Below are positions 52,038-54,655 of a stretch of 64,000 nt of DNA, piece by piece (within the stretch, counting starts at the first letter, position 1; each line of letters opens with the position of its first letter). The notes under the pieces were generated by a model, which ran no database searches, was not told the DNA's origin, and saw only the letters and a list, made by a program, of their open reading frames with translations. The stretch is taken from the sequence record MT446396.1; one strand, written 5' to 3'. Origin of the DNA: Escherichia virus TH22. The position numbers and the translations under genes were made by a program.

Positions 52038-52067
52038 AAAAAGGGCCGCAAGGCCCTTATTCTTTTT
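52035..52067. terminator. bidirectional terminator (A-run, AGGGCC-GCAA-GGCCCT, T-run)
   Basis: Seen in sequence between convergent rnlB and the gene 24 paralog. Confidence 0.6.
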
Positions 52068-53340
52068 CCAGCGGTGGAAGTTTAACACCAAGATAAGAAC
52101 TCAATTGACTTTGGTTAGCCATCTTATCCATATCAGCTCCATCAATAAGGCGAGCTTCTTTATCATCTTTAGCAACGGTGTAAGGGTTCGCAGTCAAAGC
52201 ATAACGAGCTAACAGTGCAACCGTAGGCTGTAAGCTTTCAGGGTCAACAATAACCTTGAATTCCCCAACCGAGGTATCACCCTCATCATCAACTTCGCTA
52301 AGCCCTTCCGTATAAGGCGCATAATACAAAGATGCGACCGTCTGACCTTCACCCATATCTGCATTTACACCAACAATAACATAATCACATGGACTATTCA
52401 TATCAGCGTAAAGAGGCAAACCGTTCTTCAGAACACCATAGGCCAATTCATCCTGGTCTTCCTTTTTCTCAACCCAGCCAGAAGCGGCTAAAATAGCTGC
52501 ACAACGGGAAGAAGCAACCGCATATGTACCAGCAAACGAAGTCTGACGTTGAACTGCAGAATTCATTTCACACATATAATAATACAGGGTTCGCGCGCGG
52601 TCCTGCGCGTTATCATATTTCGGGTCAGTAAGATTCAATACACCTTTTTCCGAAACACCTTGCACCTTGAAGCGGGAACTAACAGTAATAAGGGATTGCA
52701 ATACATCCTTATTAATTTCCTCTGCCATTTGAATGCCGAGAATATTATCGATGAAGTCTGTTGCATCAAAACCGTTTGCTTCCAGGTCCTGGGCAAGCTC
52801 GACAGTTAAAGAAGTTTTCAACTTTCTGGATTTAACTTCAGTCTGCCATTTATCGATACGAAAACCAGCTTCAGCAATTTCAGGATGCCCCTTTTCAAAT
52901 TTATCAGTGAAAGCAGCATCTGACATCATTCTTATATGCCCAGCAGCAATGGCTTCAGAAATAACTTCACCTAAATCAGTTTCGAGTGTACCGGCGAATG
53001 GGGATGCTTCCAAAACTTTGAACACAACACTTTCAAACTGGAACATATCGCCGACTGCATAAGCTTCGTCTTTGTTTGTAAATTCTGGAATATTCTTACG
53101 CTCGAACATACCAATCTGACCTGCAAATGTTGCTCCACCGAGATAAGTCATTTTATCATCTGGGTTCAGAACACGAACACCATACAGCGCTGCAACAGGC
53201 TGGGTAGTTTTCTGTTCGGCCACGAGCGCTTTAAAAATTCGTTTATTCGTGGCTTGAGTATAAGAAAGCAAATTAGGACGGGCGACCTGGTTGGCCGCCG
53301 TTAATGTTGATTCGTGAATTAGTGCATTAATCTTTTGCAT
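52057..53340 (-). CDS. second, diverged copy of head vertex protein gp24 (gp23/gp24 fold)
   Basis: 427 aa; colinear similarity to the adjacent gp24 (MQKINALIHESTLT... vs MAKINKLLRESTIT...; shared KSRKLKT..TVELAQDLEANGF, NKDVLQSLITVS, YAPYTEGL, ANPYTVAKDDKEAR). Confidence 0.8.
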   Translation of the reverse strand: MQKINALIHESTLTAANQVARPNLLSYTQATNKRIFKALVAEQKTTQPVAALYGVRVLNPDDKMTYLGGATFAGQIGMFERKNIPEFTNKDEAYAVGDMFQFESVVFKVLEASPFAGTLETDLGEVISEAIAAGHIRMMSDAAFTDKFEKGHPEIAEAGFRIDKWQTEVKSRKLKTSLTVELAQDLEANGFDATDFIDNILGIQMAEEINKDVLQSLITVSSRFKVQGVSEKGVLNLTDPKYDNAQDRARTLYYYMCEMNSAVQRQTSFAGTYAVASSRCAAILAASGWVEKKEDQDELAYGVLKNGLPLYADMNSPCDYVIVGVNADMGEGQTVASLYYAPYTEGLSEVDDEGDTSVGEFKVIVDPESLQPTVALLARYALTANPYTVAKDDKEARLIDGADMDKMANQSQLSSYLGVKLPPLEKE

Positions 53341-54621
53341 TTACGCCTCATAAATGATTGGCGGAAGTTTAACACCGAGCAGATAAGACATATTGCTCTG
53401 ACCGGCCATTAAATCCATATTGGTTGCATCGATAATACGAGCTTCTTTATCGTCTTTAGCAACGGTGTACGGGTTAGCTGAAAGTGCGTAACGAACCATC
53501 AGAGAGATAGATGGCTGCAAGCTGTCTGGGTCCACAATGACCTTAAACGCACCAACGTGCTCTTCATCATCCAAGTCCAGGCCTTCGGTATAAGGAGCAT
53601 AGAAAATTGCGCCTACGACTTCGTTTCCGCCGTAATTTTCTTTAACACCAACAGTTACATAATCCAATGGACTGTTAACATCACAGAATACAGGGAGGCC
53701 ATTAATCAAATAACCGTACGCTGTTTCGGGGAGCCACTGTTCGTCTTCTGGTCTGTGTTTCAACCAACCAGAACCGGCCAACATAGCAGCAACACGGCTA
53801 GAGGCAACAACAAAGGTACCGGAATAAGATGTAGTTTTCTGAATTTCGGAGTTCATTTCGCAAACCAGTTCGTACAGTTTACGTGCACCTTCTGGGGCTG
53901 CATCGTATGTTAAATCGATGGTGCCATTGTCAGAAACGCCAGTTACTTTATAACGCTTGGAAACGGTAATAAGAGACTGAAGAACATCTTTGTTAATTTC
54001 ATCTGCCATAATAGTGGCAAGCAGGTCTTCTAAGAAAGCAGGAGCATTAAAACCATTTGCTTCCATATCCTGGGCAAGTTCAACAGTTAATGCAGTTTTC
54101 AATTTACGTGTTTTAACCGGAGCATTCCATTTGTTAACCTGGAATACAGCATTGCTAATTTCAACATCACCGGCTTCGAATTTTTCAGTGTGTGCGGCAT
54201 CAGGAACAAGGCGAATAGTCGATGCAATAAGACCTTCTTGCAGAACATCAGATAACACTGTTTCTGTGGTCGATGCAAATGGATTATCAACCAGAGCTTT
54301 GTAAACGATATTTTGGTATTTTATATATTCGCCTTTAGCCACAGGCTGAGTGGCTGTAGTTAATTCTGGAATAGTTGTGCGGTCTTTAGAACCGACTTCG
54401 CCTCCATAAGTAGCGCCCGTCTGGAAACTGAATTCATTATCAGGAGTAAGATATTTAACACCATACAGTGCAGCAACAGGTTGGTTAGTACGTTGTTCAG
54501 CGATGATATCGCGGTAAATCAATTTAGTCGTAGCGCGGGTCAAAGCAACAAGATTCGGGCGGCCCAAGGAGTTGCTGGTAGTAATAGTTGACTCGCGCAG
54601 TAATTTGTTAATCTTTGCCAT
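53341..54621 (-). CDS. 24: head vertex protein gp24
   Basis: 426 aa; close match to recalled T4 gp24 (MAKIN.LLREST.T.SNS.GRPNLVALTRATTKLIY.DI.A.QRTNQPVAA). Confidence 0.9.
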   Translation of the reverse strand: MAKINKLLRESTITTSNSLGRPNLVALTRATTKLIYRDIIAEQRTNQPVAALYGVKYLTPDNEFSFQTGATYGGEVGSKDRTTIPELTTATQPVAKGEYIKYQNIVYKALVDNPFASTTETVLSDVLQEGLIASTIRLVPDAAHTEKFEAGDVEISNAVFQVNKWNAPVKTRKLKTALTVELAQDMEANGFNAPAFLEDLLATIMADEINKDVLQSLITVSKRYKVTGVSDNGTIDLTYDAAPEGARKLYELVCEMNSEIQKTTSYSGTFVVASSRVAAMLAGSGWLKHRPEDEQWLPETAYGYLINGLPVFCDVNSPLDYVTVGVKENYGGNEVVGAIFYAPYTEGLDLDDEEHVGAFKVIVDPDSLQPSISLMVRYALSANPYTVAKDDKEARIIDATNMDLMAGQSNMSYLLGVKLPPIIYEA

Positions 54622-54647
54622 TTGCGCTTTCCTTTTGTGATATACTT

Positions 54648-54655
54648 TATTTATA
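54648..54655 (-). promoter_or_regulatory. late promoter (TATAAATA) for gene 24
   Basis: tatttata on plus strand, about 27 nt upstream of the gene 24 ATG. Confidence 0.55.

What the first reader, a model, noticed from the sequence alone, without database searches (positions are those of the whole stretch)
52057..54621. Tandem, diverged duplication of head vertex gene 24
Two adjacent same-strand genes of 426 and 427 aa are both full-length gp24 homologues. The upstream one (53341-54621) is close to T4 gp24. The downstream one (52057-53340) is colinear but clearly diverged, with roughly half the residues identical by eye, and begins at the first copy's stop with no intergenic gap. A single late promoter (54648-54655) would drive both. 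I recall T4 having only one gene 24, which is itself an ancient gp23 paralog, so a second vertex paralog suggests either two kinds of pentameric vertex or a specialised or decoration role.
Basis: partly seen in the sequence, partly recalled or inferred. Interest (0 to 1): 0.45.

Follow-up and report, generated by a model that had tools for sequence, protein, structure and literature searches.

The report
Known two-gene head-vertex module
This T4-like coliphage carries two intact, adjacent genes for the capsid corner (vertex) protein gp24; the pair is real and clearly functional, but it is already annotated in about a hundred related phage genomes, and the second gene is an ancient conserved paralogue, not a fresh duplication.

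Summary
Two intact minus-strand ORFs, 24(1) at 53341-54621 (426 aa) and 24(2) at 52057-53340 (427 aa), abut as TAA|ATG. They are 55% identical, and both are full-length gp24 homologues.

The window is 100% identical to Escherichia phage UPEC07 (Gaprivervirus), whose GenBank record annotates both genes as "capsid vertex protein". JS98 (the 2007 genome), VR7 ("24(1)/24(2)"), S16, CGG4-1 ("head vertex protein I/II") and Erwinia phage Cronus have the same pair. About 93 phage records carry a 24(2) orthologue.

New points from this work:
- 24(2) is not a recent duplicate. It forms a 100%-supported deep clade outside the clade that unites 24(1) with T4 gp24.
- It lay directly behind a 24(1)-type gene in all 14 lineages examined.
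- It is under purifying selection as strong as 24(1) (dN/dS about 0.03-0.07).
- It keeps the prohead-protease cleavage motif in 26 of 26 clade members.
- Its diagnostic substitutions cluster in the N-arm and I-domain linker 1, elements that make contacts inside a pentamer.
- The pair is swapped as a cassette against a single gp24 in a Jiaodavirus-like contig.

The most likely role is a second, co-expressed structural vertex protein. This is untested, and I found no functional study.

The parts
54648..54655 (-). T4-type late promoter motif TATAAATA upstream of 24(1)
   Evidence: Exact match. It is the only one on the minus strand between 51003 and 56766. The window holds 19 matches against 4.2 expected.
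54630..54634 (-). Shine-Dalgarno-like AAGGA upstream of the 24(1) start
   Evidence: Read from the sequence...CACAAAAGGAAAGCGCAA|ATG.
53341..54621 (-). Gene 24(1), capsid vertex protein of 426 aa, orthologous to T4 gp24 (69% identity)
   Evidence: It lies inside the 90%-supported clade with T4, Mosigvirus and Karamvirus gp24. dN/dS is 0.048 against VR7.
54592..54621 (-). Predicted 10-residue propeptide of 24(1) (MAKINKLLRE|S)
   Evidence: It has the same motif as T4 gp24. T4 gp24 loses 10 N-terminal residues to the gp21 protease (PMC9958956; PMC9546572).
53346..53349 (-). GAGG Shine-Dalgarno for 24(2), inside the 3' end of 24(1) and 5 nt before the ATG
   Evidence: Junction TATGAGGCGTAAATG. 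GAGG is conserved in VR7, VR5, Bp7 and SEA1.
52057..53340 (-). Gene 24(2), second capsid vertex paralogue of 427 aa (55% identity to 24(1) and to T4 gp24)
   Evidence: It belongs to a 100%-supported clade of 26 proteins. dN/dS is 0.028 against VR7.
53311..53340 (-). Predicted 10-residue propeptide of 24(2) (MQKINALIHE|S)
   Evidence: The motif L-[IL]-x-E|S at residues 7-11 is kept in 26 of 26 members of the 24(2) clade.
52041..52058 (.). GC-rich hairpin terminator (AAGGGCC-TTGC-GGCCCTT) followed by a T run, shared by the convergent genes 24(2) and rnlB
   Evidence: Scored on both strands. It starts 1 nt after the 24(2) stop codon.

Best explanation
The locus is the conserved two-gene vertex module 24(1)-24(2) of a T4-like phage, Escherichia phage UPEC07 (Gaprivervirus).

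Shown:
- Both genes are intact.
- They sit between one late-promoter motif and one terminator, and the stop of 24(1) abuts the start of 24(2), so they are co-transcribed and positioned for translational coupling.
- Both evolve under equally strong purifying selection.
- 24(2) belongs to an old, monophyletic paralogue lineage. It lay immediately downstream of a 24(1)-type gene in four ICTV genera and many uncultured relatives.
- The pair is inherited, and occasionally exchanged, as a unit.

Inferred:
- 24(2) is a second structural shell protein. It enters the prohead and loses its 10-residue propeptide to the gp21 protease, as gp24 does.
- Five-fold symmetry does not suit a fixed two-protein mixture. 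The clade-specific substitutions also concentrate in the N-arm and I-domain linker 1, elements that take part in contacts between neighbouring subunits inside a pentamer.
- So 24(2) most likely forms its own homopentamers, which occupy a subset of the 11 non-portal vertices of the prolate head. 24(1) pentamers would occupy the rest.
- Which vertices each protein occupies is unknown.
For: - Integrity and homology. Copy 2 aligns to T4 gp24 (PDB 1YUE) over residues 1-424 at E=4e-148.
- Single transcription unit: one TATAAATA at 54648-54655 with none inside 24(1), and a terminator after 24(2).
- Coupling: stop and start abut or overlap in all seven genomes aligned and in L015-L025.
- Selection: dN/dS is 0.048 for 24(1) and 0.028 for 24(2) for UPEC07 versus VR7 at dS about 0.4. 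Other unsaturated pairs give 0.04-0.075. Both copies are about 84% identical between UPEC07 and SEA1.
- No gene conversion: within-genome identity is 52-57% in 14 genomes. Synonymous difference between the copies is pS=0.66. The longest identical DNA run is 17 nt.
- Cleavage motif: kept in 26 of 26 clade members.
- Interface signal: 7 of the 14 sites fixed differently between the 24(2) clade and all other gp24 lie in residues 26-68 (Fisher p=0.003). In T4 gp24, residues 26-29 pair with an I-domain linker of the adjacent subunit, and linker 1 (about residues 60-81) is stabilised by intracapsomer contacts (PMC9546572).
- Module behaviour: pairwise identities of 24(1) and of 24(2) across two-copy genomes correlate at r=0.81.
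- Cassette swap: contig L018 has a Jiaodavirus backbone (gp23 97%, gp22 94%, RnlB 91% identical to Kp122). It carries 24(1)+24(2) between sharp breakpoints where Kp122 has one gp24.
Against: - There are no protein-level data. I found no virion proteomics, genetics or cryo-EM for any two-copy phage in the searchable literature.
- In T4 all 55 gp24* subunits are structurally alike, and one protein serves all 11 vertices (PMC9546572). So there is no known structural need for two kinds.
- The L018/Kp122 swap shows that a nearly identical gp23 lattice works with a single gp24.
- The interface enrichment rests on only 14 sites. It was not checked against atomic coordinates.
- The AlphaFold2 model of 24(2) was too poor to use (mean pLDDT 45.6).
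- Cleavage is inferred from a short motif only.
Confidence: 0.55

Rival explanations
1. The two are interchangeable or alternative vertex proteins. Either paralogue can fill any vertex, as mixed or stochastic pentamers. The pair would be kept for robustness, for example different temperature, host or pH optima, or escape from host defences that sense the vertex protein.
For: - Both copies keep the whole gp24 architecture and the cleavage motif.
- A single gp24 suffices on a 97%-identical gp23 lattice.
- gp24 improves capsid stability at low pH (PMC10580926).
- A gp24 point mutation (A380V in T6) escapes type IV Thoeris (PMC13243611).
Against: - True redundancy rarely sustains dN/dS of about 0.03-0.07 in both copies across at least four genera.
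- 24(2) was not found alone in any of 14 lineages, which argues that it cannot replace 24(1).
- The Thoeris-escape position is Ala in both copies and in at least 96% of each clade.
- Translational coupling gives no means of expressing the two differentially.
Confidence: 0.22
2. 24(2) has a role outside the shell. It might be an assembly factor that nucleates vertices or triggers activation of the gp21 protease, an internal protein, or a decoy. It would be absent from, or sub-stoichiometric in, mature capsids.
For: - In T4, attachment of gp24 to prohead vertices is thought to trigger protease activation (PMC9958956). A paralogue could specialise in that step.
- Ten of the 14 diagnostic sites are derived in 24(2).
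Against: - Of the T4 gp24 positions, 150 are conserved and identical in both clades, spread over the whole length.
- There is no domain loss or gain (427 against 426 aa).
- Conservation is as high as for 24(1).
Confidence: 0.1
3. This is a recent, lineage-specific tandem duplication that is drifting or decaying. That is the simplest reading of the first reader's title.
For: The two genes are adjacent, colinear and on the same strand.
Against: - 24(1) clusters with T4 gp24 and excludes 24(2), at 99% bootstrap in the 19-taxon tree and 90% in the 138-taxon tree.
- The 24(2) clade is 100% supported and spans Gaprivervirus, Dhakavirus, Gelderlandvirus, Roskildevirus and metagenomic contigs.
- At four diagnostic sites 24(2) shares the state of distant outgroups, against all other gp24.
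- Synonymous sites are saturated.
- Purifying selection is strong.
Confidence: 0.02

Closest known systems
Gene pair annotated '24' and '24' in Escherichia phage JS98 (NC_010105, gp174/gp175), '24(1)/24(2)' in vB_EcoM-VR7 (HM563683), and 'capsid vertex protein I/II' in VR5, VR20, VR25 and VR26
   Same: They share the gene order 23 - (small ORF) - 24(1) - 24(2) - rnlB and the abutting stop and start. Identity to the window proteins is 88-96% for 24(1) and 90-98% for 24(2).
   Different: Nothing of substance. The window is 100% identical in DNA to UPEC07 and TH55.
Tandem vertex genes of Gelderlandvirus (Salmonella phages S16, STML-198, STP4-a, Melville, SEA1, CGG4-1 'head vertex protein I/II') and Roskildevirus (Erwinia phage Cronus; also IT22 and FBB1)
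   Same: These are the same two paralogue lineages in the same order with overlapping stop and start.
   Different: They are more diverged: 84% identity for SEA1 24(2) and about 70% for FBB1 24(2). The Erwinia-phage loci carry a collagen-repeat ORF and a Hoc-C-terminal-like ORF directly after 24(2), both absent here.
T4 gp24 head vertex protein (PDB 1YUE, 5VF3, 7VS5)
   Same: There is full-length homology: 69% for 24(1) and 55% for 24(2). The genes share the position after gene 23, late expression and the 10-residue propeptide motif.
   Different: T4 has one gene, which supplies all 11 vertices. 24(2) carries 14 clade-specific fixed substitutions, half of them in the N-arm and I-domain linker 1.
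The gp23/gp24 paralogy of T4-like phages (major capsid protein versus specialised vertex protein)
   Same: It is the same evolutionary logic. A duplicated HK97-fold shell protein is retained for a specialised position in the lattice (PMC9958956).
   Different: gp23 and gp24 are about 20-28% identical with different lengths and known distinct positions. The two gp24 copies are 55% identical and equal in length, and any positional difference is unknown.

Membership tests
T4 gp24 capsid vertex protein (Pfam PF07068; PDB 1YUE) | Full-length sequence homology to T4 gp24, closer than to gp23 | tested here: met
   24(1) is 69% and 24(2) 55% identical to T4 gp24 over about 425 aa, against about 28% over about 250 aa to gp23. 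phmmer of 24(2) against 1YUE gives E=4e-148 with residues 1-424 aligned to 1-423. Both match PF07068 at E about 1e-97.
T4 gp24 capsid vertex protein (Pfam PF07068; PDB 1YUE) | Located in the head-gene cluster downstream of gene 23 and expressed from a late promoter | tested here: met
   The order is 21-22-23-(ORF)-24(1)-24(2) on the minus strand. TATAAATA lies at 54648-54655. Promoter activity itself was not tested.
T4 gp24 capsid vertex protein (Pfam PF07068; PDB 1YUE) | N-terminal 10-residue propeptide removed by the gp21 prohead protease after an (L/I)-x-E motif | tested here: met
   The motif is present in both copies: LLRE|S in 24(1) and LIHE|S in 24(2). It is kept in 26 of 26 members of the 24(2) clade. 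Actual cleavage cannot be tested here.
T4 gp24 capsid vertex protein (Pfam PF07068; PDB 1YUE) | HK97 fold with an inserted I domain | tested here: inconclusive
   The fold is implied by 55% identity to 1YUE over the full length. The AlphaFold2 model from a 30-sequence alignment was poor (mean pLDDT 45.6, pTM 0.31), so I ran no fold search.
T4 gp24 capsid vertex protein (Pfam PF07068; PDB 1YUE) | Forms pentamers at the 11 non-portal vertices and is present in virions | not testable with these tools
   I found no proteomic or structural study of a two-copy phage.
24(2) paralogue lineage (JS98 gp175, VR7 24(2), CGG4-1 'head vertex protein II') | Falls in the monophyletic 24(2) clade | tested here: met
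   The clade holds 26 sequences with 100% bootstrap and a stem of 0.173 substitutions per site. The window protein is identical to cluster P0001.
24(2) paralogue lineage (JS98 gp175, VR7 24(2), CGG4-1 'head vertex protein II') | Lies immediately downstream of a 24(1)-type gene, with abutting or overlapping stop and start | tested here: met
   The window has TAA|ATG. The same holds in VR7, VR5, Bp7, SEA1, JS98, Cronus and contigs L015-L019 and L021-L025.
24(2) paralogue lineage (JS98 gp175, VR7 24(2), CGG4-1 'head vertex protein II') | Clade-diagnostic residues S26, N32, R34, F36, R56, V57, G68, I204, V261, F267, V288, N328, Q335, Y415 (T4 numbering) | tested here: met
   Each state is held by at least 85% of the 24(2) clade, against a different state in at least 85% of 107 other gp24. 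In the window protein, S26, N32, R34, F36, R56, V57 and G68 can be read directly from the sequence.

The most novel reading that the evidence does not exclude
T4-like phages with the 24(1)-24(2) module build prolate heads with two chemically distinct classes of pentameric vertex. For example, one paralogue might fill the five portal-proximal vertices and the other the six distal ones, or one might fill only the apical vertex. That would be an unrecognised level of positional specialisation in an HK97-fold capsid. The module would be portable between phages as a cassette.
Probability: 0.25. Interest if true: 0.6.

Novelty: already known. Interest (0 to 1): 0.28.

Why it matters
As a genome feature it is not new. 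The window is identical to a deposited phage in which both genes are annotated, and the pair has been in GenBank records since the JS98 genome.

The open question is biological. T4 is the textbook example of a capsid with one specialised vertex protein. Yet a large group of its relatives, spanning four ICTV genera and including therapeutic-candidate coliphages and Salmonella phage S16, has maintained two under strong selection for a very long time, and I found no study of why.

The analysis here sharpens that question. It shows an ancient origin, obligate pairing with 24(1), a retained protease motif, substitutions at pentamer-contact elements, and cassette exchange against a single gp24 on a 97%-identical gp23 background. 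It also points to simple decisive experiments on phages that are already in culture.

Tried and rejected
1. Horizontal acquisition of 24(2) from Jiaodavirus. tblastn showed Klebsiella-phage gp24 at about 64% as the closest single-copy relative. However, Jiaodavirus gp24 is equally close to 24(1) (63%). It simply has a short branch (root-to-tip 0.18 against about 0.32), and it does not group with the 24(2) clade.

2. 24(2) as a decoy for gp24-sensing defence. The T6 escape site for type IV Thoeris (A380V, PMC13243611) is Ala in both copies and in at least 96% of each clade. There is no signal.

3. Gene conversion or recent homogenisation between the copies. DNA identity is 43-80% in 60-nt windows and the longest identical run is 17 nt. 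Within-genome protein identity is a constant 52-57%.

4. A separate promoter for 24(2). There is no TATAAATA inside 24(1) and no minus-strand sigma-70-like hit there.

5. Foreign composition of 24(2). GC, GC3 and effective number of codons match 24(1) (ENC 45.6 against 44.5).

6. Structure prediction of 24(2). The confidence was too low to use, so I ran no fold search.

7. Literature. Nine full-text searches found no paper that discusses two gene-24 copies. The JS98 genome paper (PMC2168658) and the gp24 crystal-structure paper (PMC1129118) are not held. From memory only, I believe the JS98 paper mentions the gene 24 duplication, but I could not verify this.

8. 'More sites conserved in 24(2) than in other gp24' (16 against 1). 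I discarded this as an artefact of the much shallower 24(2) sample.
Full report
**1. The observation**

The minus strand of the window carries two intact ORFs. One is 53341-54621 (426 aa, here called 24(1)) and the other is 52057-53340 (427 aa, 24(2)). BLASTP between them gives 55% identity and 75% positives over the full length, E=3e-173. Both match Pfam PF07068 (Gp23 family) end to end.

The TAA stop of 24(1) is followed directly by the ATG of 24(2). A GAGG lies five bases upstream of that ATG. The late-promoter motif TATAAATA is at 54648-54655. It is the only one on that strand between 51003 and 56766. A GC-rich hairpin with a T run starts one base after the 24(2) stop.

One correction applies: 24(1) is 69% identical to T4 gp24, which is closer than 24(2) (55%) but not close.

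**2. What the window is, and whether the pair is known**

The region is 100% identical to Escherichia phage UPEC07 and TH55, and 94-99% identical to about twenty other phages. UPEC07 belongs to the genus Gaprivervirus, and its GenBank record annotates both ORFs as "capsid vertex protein".

Relatives name the pair explicitly:
- VR7 uses "24(1)" and "24(2)".
- VR5, VR20, VR25, VR26 and CJ20 use "capsid vertex protein I/II".
- Bp7 and WG01 have "head vertex protein" twice.
- JS98 (NC_010105) has two adjacent CDS that are both called gene 24.
- Salmonella phage CGG4-1 uses "head vertex protein I/II". S16, STML-198, STP4-a and Melville each show two vertex-protein features under the match.
- Erwinia phage Cronus (Roskildevirus) has two "capsid vertex protein" CDS.

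In the phage collection, 93 records hold a match at least 80% identical to 24(2), whereas single-copy phages reach at most about 64%. T4, a Mosigvirus, a Karamvirus, a Jiaodavirus, an Acinetobacter phage and four more distant phages have one gene 24.

Nine full-text searches found no paper that discusses the two copies or reports virion proteomics for them. The JS98 genome paper is not held.

**3. Age and origin of the second copy**

I built neighbour-joining trees on Kimura protein distances, one with 19 sequences and 200 bootstraps and one with 138 sequences and 100 bootstraps.
- They place 24(1) inside a clade with T4, Mosigvirus and Karamvirus gp24 that excludes 24(2). Support is 99% and 90%.
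- 24(2) forms its own clade of 26 sequences with 100% support on a stem of 0.173 substitutions per site.
- Its root-to-tip length is 0.35 against 0.31 for the rest, so there is no general rate acceleration.

Both copies have diverged equally between genera. UPEC07 against SEA1 is 84.3% for 24(1) and 84.0% for 24(2).

Fourteen sites are fixed differently between the 24(2) clade and all 107 other gp24. At ten of them 24(2) is derived. At four (N32, R56, F267, V288) it shares the state of distant outgroups, while every other lineage, including the Acinetobacter-phage clade, shares a different state. Quartet site counts favour (24(1),T4)|(24(2),outgroup) by 4-5 to 1.

The 24(1) partners of two-copy genomes occur in four separate places in the main clade and are interleaved with single-copy phages. 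The deepest 24(2) branch (Erwinia phage FBB1 type) pairs with the deepest 24(1) partner.

Together these results mean that 24(2) predates the radiation that separated T4 from this phage. T4 either lost it or never received it. A burst of change on the 24(2) stem after a somewhat later duplication cannot be excluded with distance methods. The apparent closeness of 24(2) to Jiaodavirus gp24 (64%) comes from that lineage's short branch, because Jiaodavirus gp24 is equally close to 24(1).

**4. The pair behaves as a module**

I examined 14 lineages directly: the window, VR7, VR5, Bp7, SEA1, JS98, Cronus and the contig groups L015, L016/L017, L018/L019, L021, L022, L023 and L024/L025. In every one, 24(2) lies immediately downstream of a 24(1)-type gene. 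The stop and start abut, lie 1 nt apart, or overlap. 24(2) was never found alone.

Pairwise identities of 24(1) and of 24(2) across 14 two-copy genomes correlate at r=0.81. Nine of those pairs were assigned from matching contig lengths, and three of the nine were later confirmed directly (L015, L018, L021). Within-genome identity between the two copies is a constant 52-57%. Synonymous sites between the copies are saturated (pS=0.66), and the longest identical DNA run is 17 nt. So there is no gene conversion.

One contig gives a natural experiment. L018 is Jiaodavirus-like: gp22 is 94%, gp23 97% and RnlB 91% identical to Klebsiella phage JIPh_Kp122. Between sharp DNA breakpoints it carries a 24(1) (69% identical to Kp122 gp24), a 24(2) and an extra 239-aa ORF, where Kp122 has a single gp24. 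Identity is at least 90% up to about codon 38 of gene 24 and again from L018 position 6047. One-gene and two-gene vertex modules are therefore exchanged as cassettes on an almost identical gp23 lattice.

**5. Evidence on function**

Selection is strong on both genes. Nei-Gojobori dN/dS for UPEC07 against VR7 is 0.048 for 24(1) and 0.028 for 24(2), at dS about 0.4. Other unsaturated pairs give 0.04-0.075. Codon usage is alike (ENC 44.5 and 45.6).

In T4, gp24 loses its first ten residues to the gp21 prohead protease, and attachment of gp24 to the vertices is thought to trigger protease activation (PMC9958956; PMC9546572). The motif L-[IL]-x-E|S at residues 7-11 is kept in all 26 members of the 24(2) clade, while the x position varies. 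That pattern is expected if cleavage matters, which implies that the protein sits inside the prohead.

Of the T4 gp24 positions, 150 are conserved and identical in both clades. Seven of the 14 clade-diagnostic sites fall in residues 26-68 (Fisher p=0.003 among conserved positions). In T4, residues 26-29 form a parallel beta interaction with an I-domain linker of the adjacent subunit in the same pentamer. Linker 1 (about residues 60-81) is stabilised by intracapsomer contacts, and residues 11-20 reach onto the neighbouring hexamer (PMC9546572).

The signature of 24(2) is thus concentrated in elements that take part in subunit contacts inside a pentamer. This is what one would expect if 24(2) assembles with itself and not with 24(1). 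That step is an inference from 14 sites and published descriptions, and I did not check it on atomic coordinates.

**6. Most likely mechanism and its rivals**

The best-supported reading (confidence about 0.55) is as follows. 24(2) is a second structural vertex protein that is co-transcribed and translationally coupled with 24(1) and processed by gp21. It forms its own pentamers on a subset of the 11 non-portal vertices.

The arguments for a subset are indirect. A five-fold pentamer does not suit a fixed two-protein mixture. Also, the vertices of a prolate head do not all have the same surroundings: the vertex-adjacent capsomers differ in skew and local curvature (PMC9546572).

Against this, all 55 gp24* subunits in T4 look alike, and a single gp24 works on a 97%-identical gp23 lattice.

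The rivals are:
- Interchangeable or condition-specific alternatives (0.22). This is weakened because 24(2) never occurs alone and both copies are tightly constrained.
- A non-shell role in assembly or as a decoy (0.10). This is weakened by full-length conservation. The known type IV Thoeris escape site A380 (PMC13243611) is identical in both copies.
- A recent decaying duplicate (0.02). This is contradicted by the phylogeny and the selection data.

**7. What failed**

An AlphaFold2 model of 24(2) from a 30-sequence alignment had mean pLDDT 45.6, so I did not use it. The fold assignment rests on 55% identity to PDB 1YUE over residues 1-424.

**8. Verdict**

This is a real feature, correctly read, but already annotated in the identical GenBank genome and in about a hundred relatives across four genera. 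The word "duplication" overstates how recent the event was. The second gene is an ancient, obligately paired, strongly conserved paralogue.

Its function is unstudied as far as I could find. It could be settled by virion mass spectrometry and C5 cryo-EM on phages that are already in culture. My scores are novelty "already known" and interest 0.28.

Noticed in passing
L018:2724-6046 compared with L004 (Klebsiella phage JIPh_Kp122): A Jiaodavirus-like metagenomic contig (gp23 97%, gp22 94%, RnlB 91% identical to Kp122) carries 24(1)+24(2) plus an unannotated 239-aa ORF in place of the single Kp122 gp24. The DNA breakpoints are sharp, at about codon 38 of gene 24 and at L018 position 6047. This shows cassette exchange between one-gene and two-gene vertex modules.
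   Followed up: yes
L016:4890-6427, L015:2676-4506, L024:3826-5341, L025:2634-4140, L026 (Erwinia phage Cronus):4327-5842: In the deep-branching Erwinia-phage-type loci, 24(2) is followed on the same strand by two ORFs. One is a collagen-repeat protein (Pfam Collagen; PHROG 'tail fiber'). The other is a short protein that matches only the capsid-binding C-terminal end of Hoc. They may form a fibrous head decoration encoded in the same late operon. Both are absent from the window.
   Followed up: partly
window:54734-55015 (+): A 93-aa ORF lies on the opposite strand between genes 23 and 24(1). It is conserved as VR7ORF190c, JS98 orf173 and an unnamed CDS in Bp7 and VR5. T4 has homing-endonuclease CDS at the same position. 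Its function is unknown.
   Followed up: no
window:51030-52037 (+), rnlB: The flanking RNA ligase 2 has a different history from the vertex genes. UPEC07 RnlB is 69% identical to T4 RnlB but only 55% to SEA1 RnlB, whereas both gp24 copies are 84% identical to those of SEA1. This suggests a recombination boundary at or near the shared terminator at 52041-52058.
   Followed up: no
window:49133-50266 (+) compared with L002:1-779 (VR7): UPEC07 encodes a 377-aa Hoc with Ig-like repeats. At the corresponding position, VR7 (same genus) has an opposite-strand ORF annotated as a collagen triple-helix repeat protein (VR7_gp196). So the head-decoration gene differs within the genus.
   Followed up: no
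whole window: The late-promoter motif TATAAATA occurs 19 times against 4.2 expected from shuffles, and 15 of the 19 are on the minus strand. This fits a late structural-gene region.
   Followed up: no
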